Positions 4,522 through 49,175 are shown, counted from the stretch's first letter. The stretch: 64,000 nucleotides of DNA from an uncultured Acidobacteriota bacterium (GCA_963801475.1 CAWDEX010000002.1:115873-179872), one strand, 5' to 3'. Program-made: numbers and translations. Notes: generated from the letters alone by a model not told the origin.

Positions 4522-4639
4522 CCCGCGGAAGAAGTCGAGCGAGGCGAAGCGGCCGGGAGGCGGGCCGGGACTCTCTTCGGTGGCGATGCGGCGATGGTAT
4601 CAACGCGCGCGGCGGCCGGCCGGTGGCAAGATCCGGCCG

Positions 4640-24363: not shown

Positions 24364-25548
24364 GTGTTCTCCGGCCGGACGCCGAAGGTCCACGCCACGA
24401 ACCGGCTGACGCGGGCTCTCGCCGCCCGCGCCGAGCCCCCGCTCGACCTGACGCTGACGAACCCCACGGCGGCGGGACTCGACCTCCCGGGCGATCCGCT
24501 CGCGGCTCTCTCCTCCCCGGGCGGGCGCCACTACGCTCCGGAGCCGGCGGGCCTCCTCTCCGCCCGGGAGGCGGTCGCCGGCTACTACGCCGCGCGGGGT
24601 TTCCCCGCCGATCCCTCTCGGGTCGTCCTCTCGGCCTCCTCCAGCGAGGCGTACGCCTGGCTCTTCAAGCTCCTCTGCGACCCGGGAGAGGCCGTCCTCG
24701 TCCCCGCCCCGAGCTATCCGCTCCTCGACGCCCTCGCCGGACTGGAATCGGTCCGGGTGGCGCGGTATCCGCTCGATCCCGACGGGGGGTGGACCTTTCA
24801 CGCGGCGAGCGTGGGCCGGGAGCTCGACCGGCTCGCGTCGGCCGGCATCCGGACGGGGGCCGTCGTCCTCGTCGCCCCGAACAATCCGACCGGCTCCGGC
24901 GTCGCGCGGGCGGAGCTTCTCGCTCTCCTCACGCTCGCGCGGACGCGCGGCTTCGCCGTGGTCTCCGACGAGGTCTTCCTCGATTACCGGTTCGCAGGCG
25001 CCCCGGACGACGTCCCCGTCGCTGCGGCGCTCGGCGACGACGGGGGCGGCCTCGTCTTCTCGCTGGGCGGCCTCTCCAAGGCGGCCGCGCTCCCCCAGGT
25101 GAAGCTCGGCTGGCTGCTCGCCGGCGGGCCCGACGACCTCGTCCGCGAGGCGCTCTCGCGGCTGGAGTGGATCGCCGACGCCTACCTCTCCGCGGGGACG
25201 CCGGTCCAGCTCGCCCTGCCGGAGCTCCTCGCGTGGGGCGAGACGGCGGCCTCCGCGATCCGCGCCCGCGTCCACGTCAATCATGTGGCGCTGACGCGGG
25301 CCTTCCCGTCCGGTGGAGCCGTCGCTCCGGCGCCGCTCCGCGGCGGCTGGTCGGCCGTCCTCCGCGTCCCGGCGGTCGAGCCGGAGGAGGAACTCGCCCT
25401 CCGACTCCTCTCGGACCACGATCTCCTCGTCCAGCCGGGCTATTTCTTCGACTTCCCCTCCGAGGCTTTCCTCGTCCTCAGCCTCCTCCCCTCGCCCGAT
25501 CTCTTCGCGGAGGGCGTCTCGCGCCTCTCACGCGCGCTCGTCCGCTGA
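24364..25548 (+). CDS. PLP-dependent aminotransferase, class I/II
   Basis: Motifs NNPTG and SLGGLSKAAALPQVKLGW (PLP lysine region). Confidence 0.8.
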   Translation: MFSGRTPKVHATNRLTRALAARAEPPLDLTLTNPTAAGLDLPGDPLAALSSPGGRHYAPEPAGLLSAREAVAGYYAARGFPADPSRVVLSASSSEAYAWLFKLLCDPGEAVLVPAPSYPLLDALAGLESVRVARYPLDPDGGWTFHAASVGRELDRLASAGIRTGAVVLVAPNNPTGSGVARAELLALLTLARTRGFAVVSDEVFLDYRFAGAPDDVPVAAALGDDGGGLVFSLGGLSKAAALPQVKLGWLLAGGPDDLVREALSRLEWIADAYLSAGTPVQLALPELLAWGETAASAIRARVHVNHVALTRAFPSGGAVAPAPLRGGWSAVLRVPAVEPEEELALRLLSDHDLLVQPGYFFDFPSEAFLVLSLLPSPDLFAEGVSRLSRALVR

Positions 25549-25582
25549 GCGATACTCTCCCGGTCTCTTCCGCGTAAACGCC

Positions 25583-26998
25583 ATGTCGCCGACGGTCGCC
25601 GTCCCGCTCTGGATCGCCGTCCTCGCCGGGCTTCTCGCGGCGTGGGCGGTGCTCGACCGGCTGCTCGTTCCGGGAATCCGATGGCTCGTCCGCCGGCGGA
25701 CGGAGCGCCTGCTGGAAAGCCTGGAAACGCGCTTCCGGATCCGGGTGGAGCCTTTCAAGCGAACGAAGCGCGAAGCGCTCGTCGAGCGGCTGGTCTGGGA
25801 TCCCCAGGTCCAGGCGGCCGCGGAGGCCGAGGCCCTCTCCGGGGGGCTGCCGCGCGACGTGGTCTTCGCCCGCGTGAAGACCTACGCCCGCGAGATTGTC
25901 CCCGCGTTCAACGCGTACGCCTACTTCCGGGTCGGCTACTCCATCGCACGGGCTCTCGCCCGGTCGCTCTTCCGGGTCCGGCTCGGCCGGGCGGACGACG
26001 GCGCCCTCGCCTCCCTTCCTCCCGACGCGACGGTCGTCTTCGTCATGAACCACCGGTCAAACATGGATTACCTCCTCGTCGCGTACCTCGCGGCCGAGAA
26101 GACGGCCCTCTCGTACGCCGTCGGGGAGTGGGCGCGCGTCTGGCCGCTCCAGACGCTGTTCCGCGCGATGGGGGCCTACTTCGTCCGGCGGGACTCGAAG
26201 AATCCCCTCTACCGGAAGGTCCTCGAGCGGTACGTCGCCATGGCCGTCGAGGGGGGCGTCACGCAGGCCTTCTTCCCGGAGGGGGGCCTCTCACGCGACG
26301 GCGCGCTCCGGACGCCGCGTCTCGGCCTCCTCGACTACATGCTCCGCGCGTTCGACCCGGCCGGAGCGCGCGACCTCGTCTTCATTCCCGTCGGGATCAA
26401 TCTCGACCGGACGCTCGAGGACCGGACGCTTCTCTTGGACCTCGAGCCCGACGTGCCCCGGAAGGGACTGGCCGCGACGGCGGGGACGGCCCTCCGATTT
26501 CTCGGGCGGAACGCGCTTCTTCTCGCGTCGAACCGCTGGCACCGCTTCGGCTATGCCTGCGTGAACTTCGGCCCGCCGATCTCCCTGCGCGGCTGGTGCG
26601 CCACGAGGCGTCTCGACCCGCGCCGCCTTCCGAAGGACGAGCGGATCGCCCGGGCGGGCGAGCTGGCGGCCGAGCTGATGGGCGCCGTGAGCCGCGTCGT
26701 CCCCGTCCTCCCGGTGCCGCTGATGGCTTCCCTTCTCCTCGCGGCGCCGGAGCGGCGCTTTTCCGAGCTGGAGCTGAAGGCCGGGAGCCTCTCCCTTCTG
26801 GCCCGGCTCGAGGCGCAGGGGGCGAGAGCCTACGTGCCCCGGAGCGACCTCGACTACGCCATCGGCTTCGGCCTCCGGGCGCTGAAGCTTCGACATCTCG
26901 TCCTCGAGGAGGACGGCTTCCTCCGCGCGAATCCCGGCGAGTTGCCGCTCCTGGCGTACTACGCCAACTCCATCGCCCACTTCGCGCGGAAGGAGTGA
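25583..26998 (+). CDS. Glycerol-3-phosphate acyltransferase-like (PlsB/GPAT-type LPLAT) membrane-associated acyltransferase
   Basis: Starts at MSPTVAVPLWIAVLAGLL, which is M91 of ORF 25313..26998. Has the HX4D motif VMNHRSNMD and the FFPEGG motif. Confidence 0.7.
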   Translation: MSPTVAVPLWIAVLAGLLAAWAVLDRLLVPGIRWLVRRRTERLLESLETRFRIRVEPFKRTKREALVERLVWDPQVQAAAEAEALSGGLPRDVVFARVKTYAREIVPAFNAYAYFRVGYSIARALARSLFRVRLGRADDGALASLPPDATVVFVMNHRSNMDYLLVAYLAAEKTALSYAVGEWARVWPLQTLFRAMGAYFVRRDSKNPLYRKVLERYVAMAVEGGVTQAFFPEGGLSRDGALRTPRLGLLDYMLRAFDPAGARDLVFIPVGINLDRTLEDRTLLLDLEPDVPRKGLAATAGTALRFLGRNALLLASNRWHRFGYACVNFGPPISLRGWCATRRLDPRRLPKDERIARAGELAAELMGAVSRVVPVLPVPLMASLLLAAPERRFSELELKAGSLSLLARLEAQGARAYVPRSDLDYAIGFGLRALKLRHLVLEEDGFLRANPGELPLLAYYANSIAHFARKE

Positions 26999-30040: not shown

Positions 30041-30185
30041 GCCGCGGGCACTGTAGGACCGTCCGCTCCGCCGAGTCAATCGCCGGCGCATGTTCCTCGC
30101 GCGAACGAGCGCCGGCGGCGCGCGGCGGGCGTACAATCCCCCGCTTTCGCTTCCCGTTGAGAACGGCTCTAGACTCGCCCCTCCG

Positions 30186-32170
30186 ATGACCGCCCCGCGC
30201 TACGCGTCCCTCCGTCCCCGCTTCGAGCCGTTCCTCCTCTCCGTGGAGCGGCCGGGGCGCTATCTCGGCCTGGAGAGGAACGTGACTCGGAAGGACCTCG
30301 CGTCGTGCGCCGTGACGATCTGCCTCGCCTTCCCCGACACCTACGAGATCGGGATGAGCCACACGGGGACGAAGATCCTCTACGAGATCGTGAACCGTCG
30401 GGAAGCGTGGGCCTGCGAGCGGACCTACGCCCCGTGGGTCGATTTCGAGGCCGTCCTCCGCCGGGAGGCGATCCCGCTGTTCGCCGTCGAGTCGGCGGCG
30501 CCCGTCCGCGACTTCGACGTCGTCGGCTTCTCGCTCCAGAGCGAGCTGAACTACACGAACGTCCCGAACCTTCTCGACCTCTCCGGGGTCCCGGTCCTCG
30601 CGGCGGAGCGGGGGGACGGCGACCCGCTCGTCATCGGCGGGGGGCCGTGCGTCGCGAACCCCGAGCCGGTGGCGGACTTCTTCGACCTCTTCCTGATCGG
30701 CGACGGCGAGGAGGCCTTCCCGCGCTTCCTGGAGGAGGTCGAGCGGACGAAAGGGCTCTCCCGCCACGAGCGCCTCCTCCGTTTCGCGGCGACTCCCGGG
30801 CTCTACGTCCCGTCCCTCTACGACGTCGACTACGACGGCGACAGGATCGCCTCGATCCGCCCGAACGCTCCGGGCGTGCCGCGGCACGCCTCGCGCGTCT
30901 GGGTCGAGAAGCTCTCGGCCGAGGTCTACGCGGACAAGCCGATGGTCCCGTCCGTCGAGATCGTCCAGGACCGGCTCGGCCTCGAGATCATGCGCGGCTG
31001 CACGCAGGGCTGCCGCTTCTGCCAGGCCGGTTACTGGTACCGCCCCGTCCGCGAGCTGGACCCGGCCGACGTCGCCCGCGCCACGAAGGCCTTCATCGAC
31101 GAGGCCGGGTGGAGCGAGGTCGGACTCCTCTCGCTCTCCTCCGCCGACTACTCGCAGATCGAGCCGCTGGTCGCCTGTCTCGCGCCCGAGCTCGCGAAGA
31201 CGAAGGTCTCCATCTCGCTCCCGTCGCTCCGGGCCGAGGCGTTCTCGGTCGCCCTCGCCGATGCCGTCTCGGAGGTCCGGAAGTCGGGCTTCACCTTCGC
31301 CCCCGAGACGGGCTCCGACCGCCTTCGTCGGGTCATCAACAAGACGTTCACGAACGAGGACATGGTGAGGGCGGCTGACGTCGCCTTCGGACGTGGCTGG
31401 GACCTGATCAAGGTCTACACGATGATCGGCCTCCCGACCGAGACCGACGCGGACCTCGATGAGCTCGTGACGCTCGTGAAGAACATCCTCGCCGAGGGGC
31501 GGAGGCACGGGATCCGGCCGACCGTCCACGTCTCGATCGGTTCCTTCGTCCCGAAGAGCTTCACGCCGTTCCAGTGGTGCCCCTTCGACGGCGTCGAGAC
31601 GCTGGAGCGGAAGCTCGCCTACCTGAAGGAGAGCTTCCGGAGCGTGAAGGGGGCGAAGCTGAAGTGGCACGCCCCGAAGGAGGCCGAGATCGAGGCGCTC
31701 CTCTCGCTCGGCGACCGCCGGATGGCGAAGGCCCTCCTCGAAGTCTGGAAGCGCGGCGGGCGGTTCGACGGCTGGTCGGAGCATTTCTCGTGGGAGAGCT
31801 GGAACGAGGCGCTCGCGGCGGCCGGCGTCCCCAAGGAGCGTCACCTCCGCCCTAAGGACCTGAAGGAGACCCTTCCGTGGGACGTCCTGGACGCCTTCAT
31901 CCGGAAGCCCTTCCTCGTCGTCGAGTGGAAGAAGGCTCTCCAGGAAGGCGGGACGGAGGACTGCAAGTGGGGGCACTGTACTGCTTGCGGTGTCCCCGGC
32001 AACGGGGAGGACACGGTGCTCGCCACCCCCCTTCCGGGGGATTTCTCCTTCGGAGGGAAGACCAGCCTCCCGGCTCTCGCGCCCGCGCCGGCCGCGCCGG
32101 CCGCAGCCGCCGCGTACCGGACGAAGGCGACCCCGGACCTCCCCCCCTCCGGGAACGGCGGAGGGTGGGC
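30186..32170 (+). CDS. B12-binding-domain radical SAM protein (TIGR03960-like). The 3' end is uncertain because of an apparent frameshift
   Basis: Starts at MTAPRY, which is M33 of ORF 30090..32423. The B12-binding-like N-domain has DTYEIGMSH. The radical SAM site is MRGCTQGCRFCQAG. After about 32150 the frame-0 translation becomes low-complexity while frame 2 encodes the partner domain. Confidence 0.65.
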
Positions 32171-32704
32171 GATGGTACCGCCGTGCCGGTGCCCGAGACC
32201 GCCCGGACGTACCGCGTCTCGTTCGAGAAGCTGGGCGACGCGAGGTACCTGTCGCACCGGAACGTCATGGACCTCTTCGAGCGCGCCTTCCGCGCCGCCC
32301 GCGCCCCGATCCGTTACACCGAGGGCTACAACCCGCACATCCGGATGTCGATGGGACCGGCCCTTCCCCTCGGCCAGGAATCGAGACACGAGTTGTTCGA
32401 CGTCGATCTGCTCGACGCGCTGACGGACGGGCACCTCGCCGCCGTGAACGCCCGCCTTCCCGACGGCGTCCGGGTCACCGGCTGGTCGGAGCTTCCGGCC
32501 GGCGCCCGCTCCCTCGGCAAGGCGGCGACGGAGGCGGTCTACCGTTTCGTCCTTCCGGACGGCGAAACGCGCGTCGAACGGCTCCGGATCGCCGGCGACG
32601 GCGCGACGACGCCGAAGCGCTTCCTCGAGTCGACGTACGGCCTCGCCCCGGAGGACCAGCACGCCATCCGCGTCGTCCGGGAAGAAACCGTTCTCAGCGC
32701 TTAG
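32165..32704 (+). CDS. DUF2344 / TIGR03936-like radical-SAM-associated protein (separate gene or frameshifted C-terminal domain)
   Basis: Frame-2 ORF with YRVSFEKLGDARYLSHRNVMDLFERAFRRA, typical of DUF2344. Candidate GTG starts lie at about 32165 and 32183. Confidence 0.55.
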   Translation: MGDGTAVPVPETARTYRVSFEKLGDARYLSHRNVMDLFERAFRAARAPIRYTEGYNPHIRMSMGPALPLGQESRHELFDVDLLDALTDGHLAAVNARLPDGVRVTGWSELPAGARSLGKAATEAVYRFVLPDGETRVERLRIAGDGATTPKRFLESTYGLAPEDQHAIRVVREETVLSA

Positions 32705-32713
32705 ACTGGGCGC

Positions 32714-33088
32714 ATGGGCTGGACCGTCCGCTGCCACGCGACCTTCGAGGCGGCGCATCATCTCGTCGACTATGTGGGCGGACCCGAGCCGGTGCACGGG
32801 CACTCGTGGAAGATCGAGGTCGCCCTCGGCGTCGAGGCGCTCGGCGCGTACGACCTCTCGGTCGACTTCGTCCCGACGGAGGCGCTCGTGAAGGAACTCG
32901 CCTCTCGCCTCCACAACCGGGACCTCAACACGGTCTCCCCCTTCGACCGGCAGAACCCGAGCGCCGAGAACGTCGCTCTCTGGGTGGCCGAGCAGATCCA
33001 GAGGGCGGGACTCCTGAAGGACGGCATCCGGCTGGAGCAGGTCACCGTTTGGGAGGGCCCGCGAAACAACGTGACATTCAGGCCATGA
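32714..33088 (+). CDS. queD: 6-carboxy-5,6,7,8-tetrahydropterin synthase QueD (PTPS family)
   Basis: Motif CHATFEAAHHL...HGHSW (Zn site and catalytic Cys). 124 aa. Confidence 0.85.
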   Translation: MGWTVRCHATFEAAHHLVDYVGGPEPVHGHSWKIEVALGVEALGAYDLSVDFVPTEALVKELASRLHNRDLNTVSPFDRQNPSAENVALWVAEQIQRAGLLKDGIRLEQVTVWEGPRNNVTFRP

Positions 33089-33160: not shown

Positions 33161-33949
33161 GTGCGAGCCATGAGCGATCTCACCCTTCTCTGCATCCACG
33201 GTTACCCGCTCGATCACCGCATGTGGGGGCCGCTCGCCGAGCGGCTCGAGAGAGTCCGGTCCTGTCACGTCGTGGCACCCGACCTCCGCGGCCGAGGCTC
33301 GTCGCGTTGGCCGGCGGCCGACGTCCACGCGATGTCGCTCTTCGCCGACGACCTGGCCGCCGACCTGAAGTCGCTCGTCCCGGGCGATGCGCCGTTTCTC
33401 CTCTGCGGCCTCTCGATGGGAGGCTATGTCTCGTTCGAGTTCCTCCGGCGCCACGGCGGGCGGCTGCGAAAGCGGCTGAAAGGGCTCGTCCTTTGCGACA
33501 CGCGGGCGGCCGGGGACGACGACGCGGGACGGGCGAAGCGGAAGGAGGCGATCGAGGCGATCCGGAGAAACGGCATCGGCGCCGCATTCGAGGCGATGGC
33601 GCCGAAGCTCCTTTCGCCGAAGTCGAAGGGGACGTCCGCCGAATCGCTCGTCCGCGAGATGATCCTCGGGACGCCGCCGGCGACGGCGGCAGCGGACCTC
33701 GCCGGGCTCGCCCTGCGGAGCGACGGCTTCGACGTCCTCGGCGCTTTCGACCGTCCTGTTCTCGTCGTCTGCGGCGACGACGACGCGATCACGCCGGTCG
33801 CCGACGCCGAGGCGATAGCCGCCGCCTGTCAGAACGCCCCGTTCGTCCGCCTTCTCACCGTGCCGAAGGCCGGCCACATGGCGCCGCTGGAGAACCCCGA
33901 CGACGTCGCCGGAGCGATCGTGGACCTTATTTCCCGGTTGCCGGCGTGA
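33161..33949 (+). CDS. Alpha/beta-fold hydrolase
   Basis: Motifs HGYP, nucleophile elbow GLSMGG, and a C-terminal GHM. Confidence 0.8.
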   Translation: MRAMSDLTLLCIHGYPLDHRMWGPLAERLERVRSCHVVAPDLRGRGSSRWPAADVHAMSLFADDLAADLKSLVPGDAPFLLCGLSMGGYVSFEFLRRHGGRLRKRLKGLVLCDTRAAGDDDAGRAKRKEAIEAIRRNGIGAAFEAMAPKLLSPKSKGTSAESLVREMILGTPPATAAADLAGLALRSDGFDVLGAFDRPVLVVCGDDDAITPVADAEAIAAACQNAPFVRLLTVPKAGHMAPLENPDDVAGAIVDLISRLPA

Positions 33950-35804
33950 GCGAGGGGAGCATCGTCAGGGGCGCGGGGGTCGCCGACCGCGCCGCGGCAG
34001 GGAGCTCCACCGGCGGGGCCGACGGGCTGTAGGCCGGGAGCGGGATCCGCGCGCCGCCCGCGTACACGGGGTGGCGTCCCTTCTCCCGGTACCACTGGGC
34101 CAGCGTCGCGCTCTGGTGCATCTCCTCGACGATCTTCCGCCAGCCGGCTCCCGTGTTGTAGGCGCAGAAGGAGATCTCGCCGAGCTGCGTGCCGTACGGA
34201 ATGATGCACATCTCCGTCCGACGGAAGTCGTAGTTGAAGAGGTCCTGGAACCACATCCCGGCCACGAGTAGGACGCGCCACGGGTGCCGGCCGGACTTCG
34301 AGATCCCCATCGACTTCCCCGTGTGGCCGTCGAGGACCTTCAGGGTCTCGAAGAGGCCGAGGTTCTCCGGCACGCCGTCCGGGCGGATGTTCCGGGCCAC
34401 GGCGAGAGCCGTCTGGAGAACCGTCAGGAACTTCCCGCGCGCGGCGTCCGTGATGGCGGTCAGGTCGCGCAGGAGCCGGTCGGCATCGAGGACCTGCGTC
34501 ACGGGGACCGCCTGTCCGGTCTCCGGGCGGACGAGGAGCATCGTCGCGATGCCGCAGTTCGGGTGGCAGCCGCACTTGAGCGAGCCCCACTCGGCCTCCA
34601 GCCCGCCGAGGAGATCCCGCAGGTCGCTGAAGGGTCCGGAGGCGGACAGGGGGAACCAGTCCCGCATCGGCTCGCCGATCCCGGCCTGCGCCTTCACGTC
34701 GTGGGCGAGGTGGGAGAGGGTGTAGCGCTGCTTCTTCCGCGTCTCGTCGTCGATCTCCTCGTCCCGCCCCGTGAAGGAGACCGGCTGGAAGGAGAGCGCG
34801 TTGATCTTGTCGACGTTCCGGACGGCGAACCGGATGATCTCGCCCACCTGGCCGTCGTTCACGCCGTTGACAATGGTGATGACCAGCGTCGCGTCGATCC
34901 CGGCCGCCTTGAGCGCGTCGAGGGCCGCCAGCTTCACGTCGTAGAGATTCGAGACGCCGCGGTGCCCGTTCACGTCGTTGCCGACGCCGTCGAACTGGAG
35001 GTAGGCGAGACGAAGCCCCGCCCCTGCGGCGGCCTGTGCGAATTCCGGCTCCTGGGCGAACCGGACGCCGTTCGTGGCGCACTGGACGGAGAAGTACCCC
35101 AGCTCGCGCGCGTACCGGATCGCCGGCAGGAAGTGCGGCGAGAGCGTCGGCTCGCCGCCGGAGAACTGGACCGACATCTGCCGGCGCGGCCTGATGGACG
35201 CCGCGTTGTCCAGGATCTCCTTGATGTCCTCCCACGTCAGCTCGTGGACGTAGCCGACCTGGTTCGCGTCCATGAAGCACGGGTTGCACATCATGTTGCA
35301 CCGGTTCGTCAGATCGACCGTGAGGACGGCGCCGCGGCCGTGGCGCATCGACGAGGATCCGTGGTCGTGCAGGGCGTCCTTCGCGATCTTCACGTCGCGG
35401 CCGAAGAAGTTCTCCTCCAGCCGGGCGAAGAAGGCGGCGTCGGTCGACATCAGGTCCTCGAAGGTGCCGTGTTCCGGACACGTCTTGACCATCCAGATCT
35501 GGCTTCCCCGCTGGACGATGTCGGCCGGGATCTCGCCCGGGCGCCCATCGATCAGGTCCCGGAGCTCGCGTCTTCCGCCCAGGATGTCGTCGCGGACCTC
35601 CTTCGTGCAGGTCGGGCAGAGGGAGTCCGTCCGGCGGGGGAAGCCGAGAGGCGGCTTCGTGCGCTCCCAGCTCTTCGGAAGTGGTTCCGGCGACCACGAA
35701 GGCTGGAACGAACGGGCCGGCAGGCGCCGGTTGGCCCACTGGAACCCCGTCCAGGCAACAGTCGCCGTCCCGCGGATCATCCGGTAGAACGCCGTCTTCC
35801 TCAT
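33927..35804 (-). CDS. Large radical SAM enzyme (625 aa) with N-terminal Cys4 zinc-ribbon/rubredoxin-like motif and C-terminal Cys-rich auxiliary-cluster region. The architecture is reminiscent of tetraether lipid synthase (Tes/GDGT-MAS); family not confirmed
   Basis: Motifs CPTCTKE...KTCPEHG (N-terminal), VDLTNRCNMMCNPCF (CX3CX2C), SGGEPTL, and C-terminal LKCGCHPNCG plus MCIIPYG...FCAYNTG. Overlaps the 3' end of the hydrolase gene by 23 nt (convergent). Confidence 0.5.
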   Translation of the reverse strand: MRKTAFYRMIRGTATVAWTGFQWANRRLPARSFQPSWSPEPLPKSWERTKPPLGFPRRTDSLCPTCTKEVRDDILGGRRELRDLIDGRPGEIPADIVQRGSQIWMVKTCPEHGTFEDLMSTDAAFFARLEENFFGRDVKIAKDALHDHGSSSMRHGRGAVLTVDLTNRCNMMCNPCFMDANQVGYVHELTWEDIKEILDNAASIRPRRQMSVQFSGGEPTLSPHFLPAIRYARELGYFSVQCATNGVRFAQEPEFAQAAAGAGLRLAYLQFDGVGNDVNGHRGVSNLYDVKLAALDALKAAGIDATLVITIVNGVNDGQVGEIIRFAVRNVDKINALSFQPVSFTGRDEEIDDETRKKQRYTLSHLAHDVKAQAGIGEPMRDWFPLSASGPFSDLRDLLGGLEAEWGSLKCGCHPNCGIATMLLVRPETGQAVPVTQVLDADRLLRDLTAITDAARGKFLTVLQTALAVARNIRPDGVPENLGLFETLKVLDGHTGKSMGISKSGRHPWRVLLVAGMWFQDLFNYDFRRTEMCIIPYGTQLGEISFCAYNTGAGWRKIVEEMHQSATLAQWYREKGRHPVYAGGARIPLPAYSPSAPPVELPAAARSATPAPLTMLPSLTPATGK

Positions 35805-35917: not shown

Positions 35918-37015
35918 TCAGAGGCCGAATCGGGCCGGCGAGAACGGTCCGGGCGGGAGAGGTGGTGTCTTGCCGGTCAGGAGATCGGCCAGGAGGAGCG
36001 CGGCCGCCGGGGCGAGGAGGATCTCGTCGCGCCCGTCGCCGGCCGCCGCCACGAGACCCGCGAGGTTCGTCTCCCCGAGAATCGGCCCGCCGTCGGGGGA
36101 TCCAGCCGACGGCCACGACCACGCGGCGAGAACCGGGTAACCGGCCACCGCAGGGACGAGCCGGGCGGCTTCGACGAGGAGCTCCGCGGCCTCGCCCGCC
36201 GTGAGGCGCCCGTCGAGTCCCTCGCCGCTTCCGGGGCCCGTGACGACGAGCGTACCGTCACGGCGCGGTACGAGGCTGCAGCGTCTTCCGTGGACGAAAC
36301 GCGAAAGACGCTCGGGGTCGGCCGCGGCGTCGAGGAGGAGGAGGGGCGTCCGGACCGGCTCGACGGGCAGCGGCGGCGCACCCGCCAGAAGGCCCGCCCG
36401 GGCGCCCGCCGCATTCACGACGACCTCCGCGCGGACGAGGCCGCGCATGGTCTCGACGCCGGCCACGCAGCCGTTCTCGACACGGACGGCCCCCGGAGCC
36501 GCCTGCTCGGCCACCATGACCCCCGCGCGGTGAGCCGCGAGGACGACGGCTCTAAGGAGGCGTGGCGGCGGCAGCTGACCGTCGTCCGGGAACGAGAAGG
36601 CGGCCCGAACCTCGCCGGAAAGGCCCGGCTCTCGGCCGCGCACCTCCTCGCCCGGCAGCACCTCGAACGCCAGCGCCCGGGACCGCTGCCAGTCGAGGGC
36701 ACGATCGAGAACGACTTCCTCTGCCTCGGTGAGGGCTACCGCGAGGCCGCCGCGGACGTCGTACTCGCACGGAAAGCCCGTCTCCACCTCCAGGAGCTCG
36801 ATCCAGTCGCCCCAGAGCCGGCGGGAGAGGAGCGTCAGGTCGCGAAGCGGTTCGGGCGCCGGGCCGGGGCGTGACTGCGCGTCGACGAAGCCGGCGGGAC
36901 CCGAGGCGGGTGACACCGCGCCGGTGGAAGCACCGTCACCGACGACCATCGTCTCGACGCCGCGGCGTGCCAGCTCGAACGCCAGAGCGAAACCGAGAAG
37001 CCCCGCTCCTGCCAC
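35918..37015 (-). CDS. FAD-dependent oxidoreductase (DAO/ThiO glycine-oxidase-like)
   Basis: N-terminal GAGLLG dinucleotide-binding motif. DAO-family length. The printed sequence suggests a GTG start near 37006. Confidence 0.75.
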   Translation of the reverse strand: MAGAGLLGFALAFELARRGVETMVVGDGASTGAVSPASGPAGFVDAQSRPGPAPEPLRDLTLLSRRLWGDWIELLEVETGFPCEYDVRGGLAVALTEAEEVVLDRALDWQRSRALAFEVLPGEEVRGREPGLSGEVRAAFSFPDDGQLPPPRLLRAVVLAAHRAGVMVAEQAAPGAVRVENGCVAGVETMRGLVRAEVVVNAAGARAGLLAGAPPLPVEPVRTPLLLLDAAADPERLSRFVHGRRCSLVPRRDGTLVVTGPGSGEGLDGRLTAGEAAELLVEAARLVPAVAGYPVLAAWSWPSAGSPDGGPILGETNLAGLVAAAGDGRDEILLAPAAALLLADLLTGKTPPLPPGPFSPARFGL

Positions 37016-40197: not shown

Positions 40198-41061
40198 CTA
40201 CTTCAGCTCGACCCGGTCGCCGACGTACATCGTGTCGCGCATCGAGGTGATGATGGCGACCGAGGTCTTCTTCCGGGTCGTCAGGATCGCGGCCTCGCCG
40301 AGCATGATCCGCACCTCGCTCGCCTCCGGCAGGTCGCGGATTCCCCGGATGAGCCGGAGGCTGTTGTCCTCGACCGGCAGGCGGAAGACGGAGAGGAAAT
40401 CCCCGGGCAAGAGGCCGTCGTCCTCTCCAAGGTCGAGGTAGACGACGCTGTCCTTCGCGATCGCCGTGACGGTGTCGAAGTCAGCCACGATGTGGCCACT
40501 CACCTTGCCGGTCTCCGGGTCGCAGGACGAGAGCGGCGCCGTTCGCCGGACGAGGGGGATGGGAATCGGCTCGAACGGAAGCAGGGAATCACCGATGTTG
40601 GTGTCGGAGCAGGACAGGACGATCTCGGCGATGGAGGAGTTCTCCTGCGCGCAGAGGATTCGGACGCGGCCGGGGGTCAGGTAGACCCGCCCCACGACGG
40701 AGAGGACCGACTGCGCCTGGTTGACGAGGCGCTCCGGCCGGACGATCCAGTACTCCTGGCCGGCGGCGAAGCCCTGATTGACGCCGCCGCTGACGTAGAC
40801 GACGTCCCCCTCGAAGAACCCCCATTTCGAGTTGATGAGCTCGGCGCCGAAGATCGTCCCGGGGAAGCTGGCGTCCGGCGCATCGAGCCAGCCCGTGCAG
40901 TAGACGTCGGCCTCGACGCCGATCGGCAGAGGGGACGAAATGGTCGGCGCTCCCGTCCGCTGAGTCTTCTGCGGAGTCGTGTCCGGGACGTCGACGGCCC
41001 ACGCGCCGCCGGACCCGACGAGGGCCACCGTGAGTAGGAAAACTGGAAGAGGCTGACGCAT
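40198..41061 (-). CDS. Hypothetical secreted protein
   Basis: Starts at MRQPLPVFLLTVALVGSGGAWA, which is M21 of ORF 40198..41121. Signal peptide. Confidence 0.4.
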   Translation of the reverse strand: MRQPLPVFLLTVALVGSGGAWAVDVPDTTPQKTQRTGAPTISSPLPIGVEADVYCTGWLDAPDASFPGTIFGAELINSKWGFFEGDVVYVSGGVNQGFAAGQEYWIVRPERLVNQAQSVLSVVGRVYLTPGRVRILCAQENSSIAEIVLSCSDTNIGDSLLPFEPIPIPLVRRTAPLSSCDPETGKVSGHIVADFDTVTAIAKDSVVYLDLGEDDGLLPGDFLSVFRLPVEDNSLRLIRGIRDLPEASEVRIMLGEAAILTTRKKTSVAIITSMRDTMYVGDRVELK

Positions 41062-41139
41062 GGACGACCTCCCACCGTTTCCCGGCTCCGGCGTGCTCGA
41101 AACCGGGCCGCCGGTCCGCATCCTTGGAAGCGCCCTAAG

Positions 41140-45345: not shown

Positions 45346-46620
45346 TCAGGCGGGCGCGGGCTCCTTCTTGGGGTATTTCGTCGCCACGTAGTCGTCCACG
45401 AGGGCCTGGAAGGCCGCCGACAGCTCGTCGTAGGTCCCCTTCAGGGTCGTGAACTTCTGGCCGTCGACGTAGACGGGACAGCTCGGCGCCTCGCCCGTGC
45501 CGGGAAGACTGATTCCGATGTTGGCGGCCTTCGACTCCCCCGGGCCGTTCACGATGCATCCCATGACGGCGAGGGTCATCGTCTCGACGCCGTCGTACTC
45601 CTTCTTCCAGAGGGGCATCTTCTCCCGGACGTAGCCCTGGATCCGCTCGGCCAGCTCCTGGAACGTCGTGGAGGTCGTCCGGCCGCAGCCCGGGCAGGCC
45701 GTGACGGACGGGGCGAAGGAGCGGAGGCCGAGCGACTGGAGGAGCTCGCAGGCCGCGTAGACCTCCTCGCGGCGGTCGCCGCCGGGACGCGGCGTCAGGG
45801 AGACGCGGATCGTGTCGCCGATCCCTTCCTGGAGCAGGACGCCCATCGCGGCCGAGGACCAGACGAGCCCCTTGGTCCCCATCCCGGCCTCTGTCAGCCC
45901 GAGGTGCAGCGGCTGGTCCGTGTGGCGGGCCAGCTCGCGGTAGACCGCGATCAGCTCCTGCGGCTTCGAGACCTTGCACGAGATGATGATCTGGTTCCTC
46001 GTCAGGCCGTTCTGGAGCGCCAGCTCCGTCGACTCGAGCGCCGAGAGGACCATGCAGTCACCGACGATCTCCTCGGAGCTCTTCCCGAGCTCCCGGTCGG
46101 TGTTCTCCTGCATCTTCCGCATGACGAGATCCTGGTTCAGGGAGCCGCCGTTGACGCCGATCCGGACCGGCTTGACGTGGTCCACGGCCACCTTGCAGAT
46201 CGTCGAGAACTGCTCGTCGCGGAGGCGCCCCGAGCCGACGTTTCCCGGATTGATCCGGTACTTGTCGAGGGCTTCCGCGCAGGCGGGGAATTTCGTCAGG
46301 AGGATGTGGCCGTTGTAGTGGAAGTCGCCGATCAGGGGCACGTCGCACCCCGCGTCGCGGAGCCGCCTGACGATCTCGGGGACGGCCGAGGCCGCCTCGG
46401 GGACGTTCACGGTGACACGCACCAGCTCGGAGCCCGCCTGAGCGAGCTCGAGACACTGCCGGGCCGTGGCCGCGGCGTCGGCCGTGTCGGTCATCGTCAT
46501 CGACTGGACGACGACCGGGGCGTCGCCTCCGACCGTGACCTTGCCGACCTTCACCGGGACGGTCACGTGGCGGCGCCGCGTCGGGACGGAGACGGCAACG
46601 ACGTGAGGTTCGGGGCCCAT
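45346..46620 (-). CDS. ispG: 4-hydroxy-3-methylbut-2-en-1-yl diphosphate synthase (flavodoxin), IspG/GcpE
   Basis: C-terminal 424 aa of ORF 45346..47073. C-terminal motifs ACPGCGRT and GCIVNGPGE (4Fe-4S ligands). Confidence 0.9.
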
Positions 46621-46625
46621 GGCGC

Positions 46626-47960
46626 TCAGAAGTTGACGTTCTTCAGGACGTCGAAGTAGAGAACCGTGACCATCACGAGGACGAGGAAGACGAAGCCGGC
46701 CTGGAGGAGCCGCTCCTTCACCTTGATCGGGAAGTCCCGGCGGGCGACCGACTCCAGGAGCGTCACGAAGATCTGCCCGCCGTCGAGCAACGGGATCGGA
46801 AGGAGGTTCAGGAGGCCGAGCTGGAGGGAGAGGATGCCCATGAGCCCGAGGAGAGGTCCCGGCCCGCTCCGCGCCGCCTCGCCCGAGAACTTGGCGATGT
46901 CGATCGGCCCCGAGAGCTGGCGCATCGAGCTCGTGCCCCGGAAGAGGCGGGCCACGGTGGCCCCGGTCGTCTGGGTCTGCCGGACCAGCTCCCGGAAGGA
47001 GGACCGGAAGGCGTCGGCGACCCCGAGCCGCTTCATCACGGTCTCGTAGCGGGGCGAGAAGCCGATCCGCCACGATCCCGCCTCCTTGCGCGGCGTGATC
47101 GGGATCGTGAGGCGCTGCCCGCCCCGCTCGACCACGAACTCGATCGGCTTGGCTCCCTCGGGACCGTCGAGGCTGGCCGCGGCCTCGCGGATCCGCCGGA
47201 CGACTTCGTAGTACGACTGGACCTCCCGACCGCCGACGGAGACGATCCGGTCGCCGGTCATGAGACCGGCCTTCTCCGCCGGGTAGTTCTTCACGAGCGT
47301 GCCGACGAGGGGCGGCAGGAAGGGATTCAGGCCCGTGTACCCGAGGTCGTACTTCTTGTCCGGCTCGGGCCGGAGGATGACGCGGACGGTTTCTCCGCCG
47401 CGCGAGAGCTCCACCGGGATGTTCTCGCGGGGCGCGAGGCCCAGATCCATCTCCACCTCGCGCCAGGTCGAGACCGGCGTTCCGGAGATCGTCAGAACGA
47501 GATCGTCCGCCTTCACGCCGGCCCTCTCGGCCGGGCTTCCCGGCTCGACGTACTTCACGAGCGGCGCTTCGTCCTGGTACTTGAAGACCTCCATCCCGAC
47601 CACGAAGGCGCCGGCGGTCAGGAGCAGCGCGAGGACGAAGTTCATTCCCGGTCCCGCCACCAGGACGAGGAGACGCTGCCAGCGCGGCCCGACCGGCGCC
47701 GCCGGCTCGCTGCCGGCGACGACGTCGCTCTCGTCGGGTCCGAGGCCGACGACCTTCACGTAGCCTCCGAGGGGAATGAGGGAGACGCGGTAGTCCGTCT
47801 CCTTCCGCTTGACGCCGAAGAGGCGCTTGCCGAATCCGAGGGAGAAGATCTCGACCGGGAACTTGAAGCCCTTCGCCACGGCGTAGTGCCCGAACTCGTG
47901 AACGACGATCAGCACCGACAGGACGAAGACGAGGGCCAGGATGTTGATCGGGATGTTCAT
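46626..47960 (-). CDS. rseP: RIP metalloprotease RseP (site-2 protease, 2 PDZ domains)
   Basis: Motifs HEFGHY (HExxH) and LDG. Two PDZ domains. 4 TM helices. Confidence 0.9.
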
Positions 47961-47981: not shown

Positions 47982-49175
47982 CTACGCCCGGTCGTGCCCG
48001 GCGGTTCCCGCCGGAGACGACCGTTCGAGGGCGGGAAGGATCTCACGAGCGGCCCTCCGGCCCCAATCGTCGGCTTCCAGGGCCTCTTCCACGCTCCCCA
48101 GCGCGCCGGGCGCGTGCCGCGCCAGGACACGGGCCGTCGTCTCGACGATGGCCGGGAACGGGATCCGGCCCGCGAGAAAAGCCTCGACGGCGATCTCGTT
48201 CGCCGCGTTCAGGACGGCCGGCGCCGAGCCCCCGGCCTCGAGGGCCTCGCAGGCGAGCGAAAGCGCCGGGTACCGCTCCGGCTCCGGGCGGAAGAACTCC
48301 AGCGTCCCGAGCGAAGGCAGGTCGAGTTTCGCGAGGGGCGTCCCGATCCGGTCGGGATAGGTCAGGGCGTAGAGGATCGGGAAGCGCATGTCGTTCGGCG
48401 ACATCTGCGCGATGAGCGAGCCGTCGACGTACTCCACGAGCGAGTGGACGATCGACTGGGGATGGAGGAGGACCTCGATCTTCTCGCCCGGCACGTCGAA
48501 GAGCCAGCGGGCCTCGATGACCTCGAGCCCCTTGTTCATCATCGTGGCTGAGTCGATCGTGATCTTCGGCCCCATGCGCCAGGTCGGGTGGGCCAGCGCG
48601 TCGGCCACGCCGATGGCCCCGAAGGTCCCGAGGGCGCGCGTCCGGAAGGGTCCGCCCGAGGCCGTCAGCATCAGCTTCGAGACCTCGGCGGCCGTGCCCG
48701 CGCGAAGCGCCTGGTGCAGGGCGCAGTGCTCCGAGTCGACCGGAATCACCTCGCCTCCCGAGGCGCGCGCGGCGGCCATGACCAGCTCCCCCGCCACGAC
48801 GAGGGTCTCCTTGTTCGCCAGGGCGAGACGCTTCCCCAGCTTCGCCGCGGCGTACGACGAGGGAAGGCCGACCGATCCGACGAGGGCGCCGAGGACGACG
48901 TCCGCCTCGGGGAGGGTCGCGACGTCGACGAGTCCCCGGGGGCCCCAGCCGACCGCGAGTCCCGGGAACTCGCTCCGGAGCCGGGCGGCGTCCTCTTTCG
49001 TCTTCACGGCCACGACTTTCGGGCGGTGCGCCGCGACGGCGGGGAGAAGCTTGTCGAGCTTCGAGCCGGCCGCCATCGAGACGATCTCGAATCGGTCCGG
49101 GAAGTGCGCCACGACCGAGAGAGCCGAGTCGCCGATCGAGCCCGTGGCTCCCATCAGGGCGATCCGCCGCTTCAT
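47982..49175 (-). CDS. dxr: 1-deoxy-D-xylulose 5-phosphate reductoisomerase
   Basis: C-terminal 397 aa of ORF 47982..49826, starting [15 protein letters not shown]. Motifs DSEH and LTASGGPF. Confidence 0.9.

What the first reader, a model, noticed from the sequence alone, without database searches (positions are those of the whole stretch)
33927..35804. 625-aa radical SAM enzyme with N-terminal Cys4 ribbon and C-terminal Cys cluster: candidate tetraether/membrane-spanning-lipid synthase (Tes/GDGT-MAS-like)
The protein has CPTC...CPEH near the N-terminus, a canonical CNMMCNPC radical SAM site at about residue 165, and GGEP. It has two further Cys clusters, CGCHPNC and MCIIPYG...FCAYNTG, suitable for auxiliary Fe-S clusters. 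The size and domain order resemble the archaeal tetraether synthase family. Bacterial homologs of that family have been proposed as the source of membrane-spanning branched GDGT-type lipids. The window also has GPAT-type and CdsA lipid genes. It is not QueE, which is present separately at 51684.
Basis: inference. Interest (0 to 1): 0.7.

Follow-up and report, generated by a model that had tools for sequence, protein, structure and literature searches.

The report
Bacterial tetraether-synthase-like radical SAM enzyme
This gene encodes a bacterial relative of the archaeal enzyme that fuses two lipid tails into membrane-spanning lipids; it belongs to a large, still untested acidobacterial branch that keeps the catalytic machinery but lacks one of the enzyme's three iron-sulfur clusters.

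Summary
It is a full-length homolog of archaeal tetraether synthase (Tes/GDGT-MAS): PDB 7TOL E = 4.7e-68, and the predicted fold matches 7TOM/7TOL at TM 0.86. The rubredoxin-like Fe site (3 Cys + His), the radical SAM CX3CX2C motif, nine SAM/5'-dA contact residues, the catalytic C-terminal [4Fe-4S] site (C417/C533/C547 + Met517) and Tyr537 are all conserved.

It is not a strict Tes. It scores 330 bits against NCBI's Tes model, whose cutoff is 450. The N-terminal auxiliary [4Fe-4S] motif (C73/C77/C80/H83), present in all 17 archaeal Tes examined, is replaced by a conserved Cys-free, His-rich loop. This variant forms its own clade across Acidobacteriota, Gemmatimonadota and Polyangia (80/80 loci examined). 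The gene stands alone, with no conserved lipid-gene neighbours.

The most likely function is SAM-dependent tail-to-tail C-C coupling of lipid chains (confidence about 0.55). Zeng et al. published that hypothesis for bacterial Tes homologs in 2022, and papers from 2025-26 still call it untested. The case is therefore of moderate interest. The part that appears new is the anatomy of this sub-clade.

The parts
33927..35804 (-). Complete CDS (625 aa + stop) of a Tes/GDGT-MAS-like radical SAM enzyme
   Evidence: ORF; GC3 0.92; Pfam PF23545+PF04055; PDB 7TOL E 4.7e-68; fold TM 0.86 to 7TOM/7TOL.
35724..35801 (-). Clade-specific N-terminal helix (aa 2-27). It is moderately amphipathic and is a possible membrane-surface anchor (inferred). 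It is absent from archaeal Tes.
   Evidence: AF2 helix 2-27 with pLDDT 86-95; muH about 0.45-0.49; median N-extension 62 aa in the clade vs 8 aa in archaea.
35445..35639 (-). Rubredoxin-like Fe domain (aa 56-120) with ligands C63, C66, C109, H112. It carries a 22-residue insertion between the CxxC and CPxH halves relative to archaeal Tes.
   Evidence: Pfam Zn_ribbon_HMPTM; alignment to Mj C9/C12/C33/H36; spacing 42 vs 20; invariant in 80/80 loci.
35331..35384 (-). Conserved His-rich, Cys-free loop (aa 141-158, D143-x-L-H146-x-H148-G-S-S...G-R-G). It occupies the position of the archaeal [4Fe-4S]N motif C73-X3-C77-X2-C80-X2-H83.
   Evidence: Alignments; 77/80 loci have no Cys between the rubredoxin site and the radical SAM motif; H148, G149, G156, R157 and G158 are 80/80; this is the only internal AF2 segment with pLDDT < 50.
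34824..35312 (-). Radical SAM core (aa 165-327) with CX3CX2C at C169/C173/C176 (nt 35277-35300) and the GGEP motif at aa 216-219. Three further SAM/5'-dA contacts (Q340, S343, R347) lie just downstream.
   Evidence: Pfam Radical_SAM E 1e-22; the Mj contacts G145, Y195, D199, V236, T238, Q268, S271, T273 and R275 are all conserved.
34149..34592 (-). C-terminal auxiliary-cluster domain (aa 405-552). The predicted [4Fe-4S]C ligands are C417, C533, C547 and the labile M517. It also holds the conserved active-site Y537, the clade-specific invariant pair C411/C413, and H414.
   Evidence: The equivalent Mj columns C338, C455, C470, M439 and Y459 are conserved in all archaeal Tes and in the clade. Mj C438 and C456 are variable, so they are not counted as ligands (inference). 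CGCHPNCG is 80/80.
33930..34031 (-). Low-complexity Pro/Ala-rich C-terminal tail (aa 592-625), predicted disordered. Its last 23 bp overlap the 3' end of the convergent alpha/beta-hydrolase gene (33161-33949).
   Evidence: pLDDT < 50 for residues 592-625; ORF coordinates.

Best explanation
The gene encodes a functional radical SAM lipid-tail coupling enzyme of the Tes/GDGT-MAS family. It belongs to a distinct bacterial clade, centred on Acidobacteriota, that has lost the N-terminal auxiliary [4Fe-4S] cluster.

Proposed mechanism, by homology with M. jannaschii GDGT-MAS (PMC9433317):
1. The C169/C173/C176 cluster reductively cleaves SAM.
2. The resulting 5'-deoxyadenosyl radical abstracts H from the terminal (omega) carbon of a saturated lipid chain held in a hydrophobic tunnel.
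3. The substrate radical is parked on a sulfide of the C-terminal [4Fe-4S] cluster (C417/C533/C547, labile M517; Y537 nearby).
4. A second SAM generates a radical on a second chain, which attacks the S-bound carbon and forms a C(sp3)-C(sp3) bond.

In a bacterium the likely substrates are iso-branched acyl or alkyl chains of glycerophospholipids. The products would be iso-diabolic-acid-type membrane-spanning lipids, which are brGDGT precursors.

What is shown: homology, fold, conservation of the catalytic residues, loss of the N-cluster ligands, and clade distribution. What is inferred: the substrate, the product, membrane association through the extra N-terminal helix, and electron delivery through the rubredoxin-like site without the N-cluster.
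For: Sequence homology runs over 480 residues to the crystallised Tes, and NCBIfam Tes is the top hit. The AF2 model (pLDDT 83, pTM 0.86) matches 7TOM/7TOL at TM 0.86 and E 1e-37; the next hit, MoaA, covers only the core. The radical SAM motif, nine SAM/5'-dA contacts, the three invariant C-cluster Cys, Met439 (M517) and Tyr459 (Y537) are conserved in the query, in 39/39 clade members of alignment A2 and in 80/80 loci. Identity is 56-60% across classes and 87-95% within Terriglobia, and metagenome clusters are very large (up to 2,074 members), which suggests strong purifying selection on a core function. The clade occurs in Acidobacteriaceae, Bryobacteraceae/Solibacter, Pyrinomonadaceae/Blastocatellia and Vicinamibacteria. 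These are the lineages of subdivisions 1, 3, 4 and 6, which are reported to make iso-diabolic acid (PMC13159169, PMC4644332). Edaphobacter MAGs carry it. E. aggregans, a brGDGT producer, is reported to have a single Tes homolog of about 32% identity to archaeal Tes (PMC8941075); the query's identity to Mj Tes is similar, at 33%. [quoted passage not shown]
Against: No bacterial Tes homolog has been tested experimentally (PMC11868695; bioRxiv 10.64898/2026.06.23.733905). The protein scores 120 bits below NCBI's Tes equivalog cutoff. One of the four metallocentres of the characterised enzyme is missing; its role in Tes is unknown (PMC9433317). No lipid gene is a conserved neighbour, and the window contains no Ger/PlsA, Elb, Mss, Gms or Grs gene. 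The clade is also present in Gemmatimonadota, Polyangia, Holophagales and Thermoanaerobaculia, and I found no report of membrane-spanning lipids in those groups. From my own recollection, not verified here, cultured subdivision 8, 10 and 23 acidobacteria lack iso-diabolic acid. Sahonero-Canavesi et al. found Tes homologs in only 3 of 14 iso-diabolic-acid-producing acidobacteria with their thresholds and favoured an alternative pathway (PMC13159169).
Confidence: 0.55

Rival explanations
1. The fold and radical chemistry are the same, but the lipid reaction differs. Examples are intramolecular macrocyclisation, mid-chain cross-linking or cyclisation of fatty acyl, alkyl or polyprenyl chains, or coupling of non-glycerolipid tails. 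The clade would then be a Tes paralog with a diverged product.
For: The clade is separate from all archaeal Tes in the NJ tree and falls below the Tes cutoff. It has its own invariant features: C411/C413, the His-rich loop, the N-terminal helix and the rubredoxin insertion. S. usitatus is reported to have two Tes homologs (PMC10087280), which would allow a division of labour. M. jannaschii Tes itself makes both macrocyclic archaeol and GDGT (PMC9433317). The clade also occurs in phyla with no reported membrane-spanning lipids.
Against: The residues positioned around the terminal carbon and the C-cluster (Met, Tyr, three Cys) are unchanged, which argues for the same omega-omega coupling geometry. 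There is no positive evidence for any other product.
Confidence: 0.22
2. The enzyme acts on a non-lipid substrate, such as a cofactor or small-molecule intermediate, and the similarity to Tes reflects only a shared scaffold.
For: The gene sits in housekeeping synteny with no lipid neighbours. In some genomes it lies next to a ThiO-like oxidase, UbiX-like or UbiA genes. Divergent relatives in the same N-cluster-less superclade (P0245, P0246, P0273) have lost the C-cluster ligands and the Tyr, so the scaffold is functionally plastic.
Against: The query keeps every catalytic element of the lipid enzyme. The full-length fold, including the helical C-terminal lipid-pocket domain, matches 7TOL. The neighbouring genes vary between lineages.
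Confidence: 0.15
3. It is the pterin methylase that JGI names it: 7,8-dihydro-6-hydroxymethylpterin dimethyltransferase, a 'class D' radical SAM methylase.
For: Several homologs carry this JGI annotation, and the Pfam ribbon domain is named after HMPTM. QueD/PTPS-like pterin-fold genes lie nearby at 32714-33088.
Against: The annotation derives from MJ0619, which is the same protein as GDGT-MAS. Lloyd et al. could not reproduce the methylase activity and showed that it is a lipid synthase (PMC9433317). I know of no report of methanopterin in Acidobacteriota (own knowledge). The QueD-like gene is on the opposite strand, beyond a hydrolase gene, and belongs to queuosine-type chemistry.
Confidence: 0.02
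4. It is a SPASM/twitch peptide maturase or an anaerobic sulfatase-maturating enzyme.
For: There are weak radical SAM core hits to SkfB, PqqE, NirJ and mycofactocin maturase.
Against: Those hits cover only the core, at E 1e-4 or worse in PDB and at most 69 bits in NCBIfam, against 330 bits and E 1e-68 for Tes. No SPASM domain is found. There is no precursor-peptide context.
Confidence: 0.01

Closest known systems
Archaeal tetraether synthase Tes / GDGT-MAS (M. jannaschii MJ0619, PDB 7TOL/7TOM; M. acetivorans MA_1486)
   Same: The domain order is the same: rubredoxin-like Fe site (3 Cys + His), radical SAM core, C-terminal auxiliary cluster domain. CX3CX2C, nine SAM/5'-dA contacts, three C-cluster Cys, the labile Met and the active-site Tyr are all conserved. 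The predicted fold has TM 0.86.
   Different: Identity is only 33%. The protein falls below the NCBIfam Tes cutoff (330 vs 450 bits). The [4Fe-4S]N ligands C73/C77/C80/H83 are replaced by a conserved His-rich, Cys-free loop. It has about 55 extra N-terminal residues with a confident helix, a 22-residue insertion in the rubredoxin domain, an extra invariant Cys pair (C411/C413) and a longer C-terminal tail. The host is bacterial, so the substrate would be fatty-acid-based rather than isoprenoid.
Bacterial 'Tes homologs' proposed for brGDGT synthesis (Zeng et al. 2022; S. usitatus, K. versatilis, E. aggregans)
   Same: The window protein is one of these, from Thermoanaerobaculia, and the published hypothesis applies to it directly. 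Orthologs at 56-60% identity occur in Solibacter, Bryobacteraceae, Acidobacteriaceae and Edaphobacter MAGs.
   Different: The literature treats the bacterial homologs as one group. Here they split into an archaeal-like, N-cluster-containing type that passes or approaches the Tes cutoff (432-593 bits) and includes Phycisphaerae, and the N-cluster-less type to which the window protein belongs (299-330 bits; the outlier P0242 scores 414). I infer, but did not test, that the S. usitatus homolog with 40% identity to MA_1486 is of the first type, and that the roughly 32% E. aggregans homolog is of the second.
Mss, bacterial membrane-spanning lipid synthase (Thermotoga maritima, Thermoanaerobacter ethanolicus; Sahonero-Canavesi et al. 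2022)
   Same: It is a radical SAM enzyme shown to couple fatty acid tails into diabolic acids. The mechanism postulated for it is the same auxiliary-cluster-dependent one (PMC13459092). The functional outcome proposed here is analogous.
   Different: Mss is described as only remotely related to Tes, and no mss homologs were found in cultured Acidobacteria (PMC13159169). The window protein is unambiguously on the Tes side. I had no Mss sequence, so no direct comparison was made.
TrsS radical SAM (seleno)protein (NCBIfam NF045646)
   Same: It is the second-best NCBIfam hit and shares the N-terminal ribbon and the radical SAM core.
   Different: The score is 213 bits against a cutoff of 490, and the match covers mainly residues 91-375. 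The C-terminal Tes-type domain is not matched.

Membership tests
Tes / GDGT-MAS sensu stricto (NCBIfam NF045702 equivalog) | Whole-protein score at or above the curated cutoff (450 bits) | tested here: not met
   The query scores 329.8 bits. The clade members P0393 and P0241 score 326.6 and 298.9, whereas N-cluster-type representatives score 432-593.
Tes / GDGT-MAS sensu stricto | Rubredoxin-like mononuclear Fe site CX2C...CX2H (Mj C9, C12, C33, H36) | tested here: met
   C63, C66, C109 and H112 align to the Mj ligands and are invariant in 80/80 loci. The spacing is 42 rather than 20 residues.
Tes / GDGT-MAS sensu stricto | N-terminal auxiliary [4Fe-4S]N cluster ligated by C73, C77, C80 and a conserved His | tested here: not met
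   The query has A144, H148, S151 and R154 at these columns. All 17 archaeal Tes examined have C/C/C/H. In 77 of 80 clade loci there is no Cys anywhere between the rubredoxin site and the radical SAM motif.
Tes / GDGT-MAS sensu stricto | Radical SAM CX3CX2C cluster and SAM/5'-dA binding residues | tested here: met
   C169, C173 and C176 are present. G217, Y268, D272, V308, T310, Q340, S343, T345 and R347 correspond to Mj G145, Y195, D199, V236, T238, Q268, S271, T273 and R275.
Tes / GDGT-MAS sensu stricto | C-terminal [4Fe-4S]C cluster with three Cys and the labile Met439, plus the strictly conserved Tyr459 | tested here: met
   C417, C533, C547, M517 and Y537 align to the invariant columns Mj C338, C455, C470, M439 and Y459. 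Assigning the three Cys as ligands is inferred from their invariance; the paper names only Met439.
Tes / GDGT-MAS sensu stricto | Four-domain fold of 7TOL, including the hydrophobic lipid tunnels | tested here: met
   Foldseek finds 7TOM/7TOL at E 1e-37 and TM 0.86, normalised to the target. The lining of the tunnels could not be inspected because no coordinates are available.
Tes / GDGT-MAS sensu stricto | Catalyses omega-omega C-C coupling of two saturated lipid chains (GDGT or macrocyclic archaeol formation) | not testable with these tools
   This needs an enzyme assay or lipidomics. No bacterial homolog has been validated.
Broad Tes-like radical SAM family (Pfam PF23545 + PF04055 architecture; InterPro IPR034474 as used by Lloyd et al.) | HMPTM-type zinc-ribbon/rubredoxin domain followed by a radical SAM core | tested here: met
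   PF23545 scores 59.5 bits (cutoff 27) and PF04055 scores 81.6 bits (cutoff 29.5).
SPASM/twitch radical SAM maturases (incl. anSME) | C-terminal SPASM or twitch domain with a CX9-15GX4C...CX2CX5CX3C motif | tested here: not met
   There is no SPASM Pfam hit, and only weak core-only hits to SPASM families.
TrsS (NF045646) | Score at or above 490 bits over the full 441-position model | tested here: not met
   The score is 212.9 bits, and the best stretch covers model positions 13-296.
Mss (bacterial membrane-spanning lipid synthase) | Homology to T. maritima / T. ethanolicus Mss (E <= 1e-50 and >= 30% identity, as used by its discoverers) | not tested
The literature states that Mss is only remotely related to Tes (PMC13159169).

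The most novel reading that the evidence does not exclude
The N-cluster-less clade to which this gene belongs, rather than the archaeal-like Tes paralog, could be the general acidobacterial synthase for iso-diabolic-acid and brGDGT membrane-spanning lipids. It may have been under-detected in earlier surveys because it sits at about 31-33% identity to archaeal Tes, right at the BLAST thresholds those surveys used. Its conserved His-rich loop (H146/H148), together with the invariant C411/C413 pair, could form a new metal site that replaces [4Fe-4S]N and adapts electron input to facultatively aerobic bacteria.
Probability: 0.3. Interest if true: 0.8.

Novelty: new variant of a known kind. Interest (0 to 1): 0.42.

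Why it matters
brGDGTs are among the most widely used terrestrial palaeotemperature and pH proxies, yet the enzyme that makes their membrane-spanning backbone in Acidobacteria has not been demonstrated. Bacterial Tes homologs are the leading candidates. This analysis shows that they are not one group. The window gene represents a very abundant, highly conserved acidobacterial-type clade that retains the catalytic cluster but lacks one auxiliary cluster of the archaeal enzyme. This tells experimenters which paralog to express or delete. It suggests that homology thresholds of about 30% identity to archaeal Tes may undercount candidate producers. It also provides a natural variant for asking what the [4Fe-4S]N cluster does. 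The individual gene adds little beyond that: it is one of thousands of near-identical database entries, and the functional idea is already published.

Tried and rejected
- **Genomic context as functional evidence.** I annotated about 45 ORFs of the window and five relatives' contexts, and clustered neighbours across 84 compared regions (83 related loci plus this window). No neighbour family occurs in more than 9 of the 84. The ThiO-like oxidase directly upstream is kept in L001 and L004 but absent in L002. There are no Ger/PlsA, Elb, Mss, Gms or Grs genes in the window. Context was rejected as uninformative.
- **Source organism.** The exact protein is not on record, so the taxon rests on the closest hits, which are Thermoanaerobaculia MAGs at 80-92% identity.
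- **Cultured strains carrying the clade.** Cluster-member look-ups returned only MAG names: Edaphobacter sp., Terracidiphilus sp. and Korobacteraceae. The link to E. aggregans, A. capsulatum and S. usitatus isolates therefore stays inferential.
- **Lipids of cultured Thermoanaerobaculum aquaticum.** Three papers that cite the species gave no membrane-spanning-lipid data.
- **Promoter and terminator scan around the gene.** Nothing was found. The sigma-70 consensus is probably unsuitable for this organism.
- **Rejected interpretations.** SPASM maturase, anSME, MoaA, NirJ, TrsS and pterin-methylase readings were rejected on scores and architecture.
- **A new His/Cys metal site.** Whether H146/H148 and C411/C413 are close in space could not be tested, because the structure tool returns no coordinates.
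Full report
**1. Observation**

Window 33927-35804 holds a single ATG-to-stop ORF of 625 codons on the minus strand. In this 70% GC window its codon-position GC is that of a real gene: GC3 0.92, GC2 0.49. CPTC is at residues 63-66, CPEH at 109-112, CNMMCNPC at 169-176, GGEP at 216-219, CGCHPNC at 411-417, MCIIPYG at 532-538 and FCAYNTG at 546-552. There are 12 cysteines in all. Pfam finds a radical SAM core at 165-327 (E 1e-22) preceded by the HMPTM-type zinc-ribbon domain at 56-120 (E 2e-16). Two details need correcting: the ribbon is Cys3His rather than Cys4, and the gene is on the minus strand.

**2. What it is homologous to**

The only strong match among solved structures is M. jannaschii GDGT-MAS/Tes (7TOL). 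It aligns at E 4.7e-68 over query residues 91-573. The next hit, SkfB, is at 2e-4. The top NCBIfam hit is the Tes equivalog NF045702, which aligns end to end (profile positions 2-483 of 486). The score of 329.8 bits is well below the curated cutoff of 450. TrsS comes second at 213 bits against a cutoff of 490.

An AlphaFold2 model was built from a 57-sequence alignment and is confident (mean pLDDT 83, pTM 0.86). It superposes on 7TOM/7TOL at TM 0.86 (normalised to the target) and E about 1e-37. The next structure, MoaA at 1.5e-9, matches only the radical SAM core.

**3. Residue-level comparison with the characterised enzyme**

The structure paper (PMC9433317) and a 2026 review (PMC13459092) define four metallocentres in M. 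jannaschii Tes:

- a rubredoxin-like Fe (C9, C12, C33, H36);
- a surface [4Fe-4S]N (C73, C77, C80 plus a His);
- the radical SAM cluster;
- a catalytic [4Fe-4S]C with three Cys and the labile Met439, next to the strictly conserved Tyr459.

I rebuilt the Mj sequence from the HMMER alignments. It reproduced the paper's numbering exactly, and the full-length protein was later retrieved as P0121. I then aligned three sets. The first held the query, 8 close relatives, 44 full-length 50%-identity representatives and 16 archaeal Tes. The second was the 57-sequence alignment A2, with 17 archaeal Tes. The third held 80 genomic loci.

The conserved features are as follows:

- The rubredoxin site (C63, C66, C109, H112) is invariant.
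- The radical SAM cysteines are invariant.
- All nine SAM/5'-dA contact residues named in the paper are conserved (G217, Y268, D272, V308, T310, Q340, S343, T345, R347).
- The three family-invariant C-terminal cysteines (C417, C533, C547, equivalent to Mj C338, C455, C470), Met517 (M439) and Tyr537 (Y459) are conserved.
- Mj C438 and C456 vary across the family, so I do not count them as ligands. This is an inference.

The [4Fe-4S]N motif is different. All 17 archaeal Tes have C/C/C/H at these columns. The query has A144, H148, S151 and R154. In 77 of 80 clade members there is no cysteine at all between the rubredoxin site and the radical SAM motif.

The replacement loop is not decayed. D143-x-L-H146-x-H148-G-S-S-T-I-x-[H/Y]-G-R-G is strongly conserved, with H148, G149, G156, R157 and G158 in 80/80 loci and H146 in 76/80. 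It is also the only internal segment that AlphaFold models with pLDDT below 50.

The clade has further signatures of its own:

- an invariant C411-G-C413-H414-P-N-C417-G motif, where Mj has L-S-S-H-Q-H-C-G;
- about 55 extra N-terminal residues that form a confident, moderately amphipathic helix (residues 2-27);
- a 22-residue insertion inside the rubredoxin domain;
- a longer, disordered C-terminal tail.

**4. The clade**

The closest proteins, at 65-92% identity, are from Thermoanaerobaculia (Acidobacteriota) MAGs. The exact protein is not on record.

A pattern scan of one genome per GTDB species found at least 596 relatives. The best 80, at 56-81% identity, span Thermoanaerobaculia, Holophagales, Vicinamibacteria, Blastocatellia/Pyrinomonadaceae, Chloracidobacterium, Bryobacteraceae/Solibacter, Acidobacteriaceae/Terriglobia, Gemmatimonadota, Polyangia and Eisenbacteria. 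All 80 share the signature described above.

Terriglobia orthologs are about 700 aa long and 87-95% identical to the Acidobacteriaceae query sequence (L067). They form metagenome clusters of up to 2,074 sequences and include Edaphobacter, Terracidiphilus and Korobacteraceae MAGs.

In the 50%-identity representative library, 507 clusters match the query at E <= 1e-30. A neighbour-joining tree of the full-length representatives separates two superclades. The N-cluster-less superclade holds the query clade plus divergent branches that have also lost the C-cluster ligands and the Tyr. The other superclade holds every archaeal Tes together with the N-cluster-type representatives.

NCBI's Tes model scores the N-cluster-type representatives at 432-593 bits. 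It scores the query, P0241 and P0393 at 299-330 bits; the outlier P0242 scores 414. At least one N-cluster-type cluster is bacterial, from Phycisphaerae. Bacteria therefore carry both types.

**5. Context**

Within Thermoanaerobaculia the gene sits in conserved housekeeping synteny. PASTA, Rpe, BamD, TatA, an APH-family kinase and a cyclophilin lie on one side. On the other, diverging from them, come a small EcsC-like gene, a ThiO-like FAD oxidase (192 bits against a cutoff of 251) and the Tes-like gene. An alpha/beta-hydrolase, QueD-like PTPS and a TIGR03960 B12-radical SAM gene lie beyond it. The oxidase is missing in an 83%-identity relative (L002).

Across 84 compared regions (83 related loci plus this window), no neighbour family recurs in more than 9. 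Terriglobia contexts differ again.

The window's lipid genes are a PlsB-like GPAT at 25313-26998 and CdsA at 49172-49978. CdsA lies in an IspG-RseP-CdsA housekeeping region. Both are distant from the Tes-like gene. There is no Ger/PlsA, Elb, Mss, Gms or Grs gene in the window. The gene is effectively stand-alone, and context neither supports nor contradicts a lipid role.

**6. Literature status**

Zeng et al. 2022 reported 456 bacterial Tes homologs and proposed that they make brGDGT-type membrane-spanning lipids. They cited K. versatilis at 42% and S. usitatus at 40% identity to MA_1486, and the single E. aggregans homolog at 32%. Lloyd et al. also noted bacterial homologs of unknown function. 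Chen et al. used Tes homology to pick S. usitatus as a brGDGT producer. Halamka et al. state that S. usitatus has two Tes homologs.

Sahonero-Canavesi et al. found Tes homologs in only 3 of 14 iso-diabolic-acid-producing acidobacteria, using thresholds of at least 30% identity and E <= 1e-50. They found no Mss there, and suggested an alternative pathway. Papers from 2025-26 still say that the bacterial homologs are not experimentally validated. A search found no paper describing loss of the N-cluster.

**7. Interpretation**

The most likely reading (confidence about 0.55) is that this is an active radical SAM enzyme performing Tes-type omega-omega C(sp3)-C(sp3) coupling of lipid chains. The substrates would be bacterial iso-branched acyl or alkyl glycerolipids. 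The mechanism would follow the one shown for GDGT-MAS:

1. SAM is cleaved at the radical SAM cluster.
2. H is abstracted from a terminal carbon.
3. The radical is stored on a sulfide of [4Fe-4S]C.
4. A second SAM turnover generates a second substrate radical.
5. The second radical attacks the stored carbon and forms the C-C bond.

Homology, fold and conservation of the catalytic apparatus are shown here. Substrate and product are inferred. The role of [4Fe-4S]N in the archaeal enzyme is unknown; the cluster lies on the surface and is presumed to act in electron transfer (PMC9433317). Its loss therefore lowers the claim 'this is Tes' more than the claim 'this works like Tes'.

The rivals are:

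- a diverged lipid reaction on the same scaffold (0.22);
- a non-lipid substrate (0.15);
- the obsolete pterin-methylase annotation (0.02);
- a SPASM-type maturase (0.01).

**8. Novelty and score**

The functional idea is already published, and the gene is one of thousands of database entries.

Three points appear to be undescribed:

- The 'bacterial Tes homologs' split into two architectural types.
- The abundant, highly conserved acidobacterial type lacks one of the four metallocentres and has a conserved His-rich loop plus an extra Cys pair in its place.
- This type sits at about 31-33% identity to archaeal Tes, at the edge of the thresholds used in published surveys.

If this clade proves to be the general acidobacterial membrane-spanning-lipid synthase (probability about 0.3), it would matter for brGDGT proxy interpretation. 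I rate it a new variant of a known kind, with interest 0.42.

Noticed in passing
window 30090-32423 (+), 32714-33088 (+), 33161-33949 (+): A TIGR03960-family B12-binding radical SAM protein (678 bits), a QueD/PTPS-like protein and an alpha/beta-hydrolase form a block next to the Tes-like gene. The block is conserved in close relatives (L002, L003), where the radical SAM protein is 890 aa and carries a DUF2344 domain; here the ORF is 777 aa. The hydrolase's 3' end overlaps the Tes-like gene's 3' end by 23 bp, and the two genes are convergent.
   Followed up: partly
window 35918-37015 (-): A ThiO-like FAD oxidoreductase of the DAO family (192 bits, below the 250.8-bit ThiO cutoff) lies 113 nt upstream of the Tes-like gene on the same strand. 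The pairing is kept in L001 and L004 but is absent in L002, so it is probably not a functional partner.
   Followed up: partly
window 4490-6232 (+) and 11499-13307 (+): Two unusual fusion proteins each contain a Beta-lactamase2 domain. One is fused to an N-acetylmuramoyl-L-alanine amidase domain. The other is fused to SH3 and NlpC/P60 peptidase domains. Both look like cell-wall remodelling or recycling enzymes.
   Followed up: no
window 7121-9433 (+), 3445-4521 (-), 14503-15423 (-), 40198-41121 (-): Several long ORFs have gene-like GC3 (0.88-0.92) but no Pfam match, including one of 770 aa.
   Followed up: no
L086 12990-14462 (+); L001 482-1783 (-): In a Korobacteraceae genome a 490-aa B12-binding radical SAM gene lies 3 kb downstream of the Tes-like ortholog. 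In a Thermoanaerobaculia relative a radical SAM/SPASM gene lies 8 kb away. They could be Grs-, methylase- or Gms-like lipid modifiers, because bacterial gms genes are reported to cluster with tes (PMC11214058). Neither has a counterpart in the window.
   Followed up: partly
proteins P0245, P0246, P0250, P0261, P0273: Divergent full-length relatives in the same N-cluster-less superclade also lack the C-terminal cluster ligands and the active-site Tyr. They probably represent further uncharacterised subfamilies with different chemistry.
   Followed up: no
alignment column of query C413: A Cys at the position of query C413 also occurs in a subset of bona fide archaeal Tes (for example P0125, P0146, P0156, P0157, P0193) but not in M. 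jannaschii. P0267 and P0293 carry both the N-cluster motif and the C411/C413 pair. The extra Cys pair is therefore not simply a replacement for the N-cluster.
   Followed up: no
window 45346-47073 (-), 46626-47960 (-), 49172-49978 (-): IspG (GcpE), RseP (M50 protease) and CdsA form a standard isoprenoid and phospholipid housekeeping region.
   Followed up: yes
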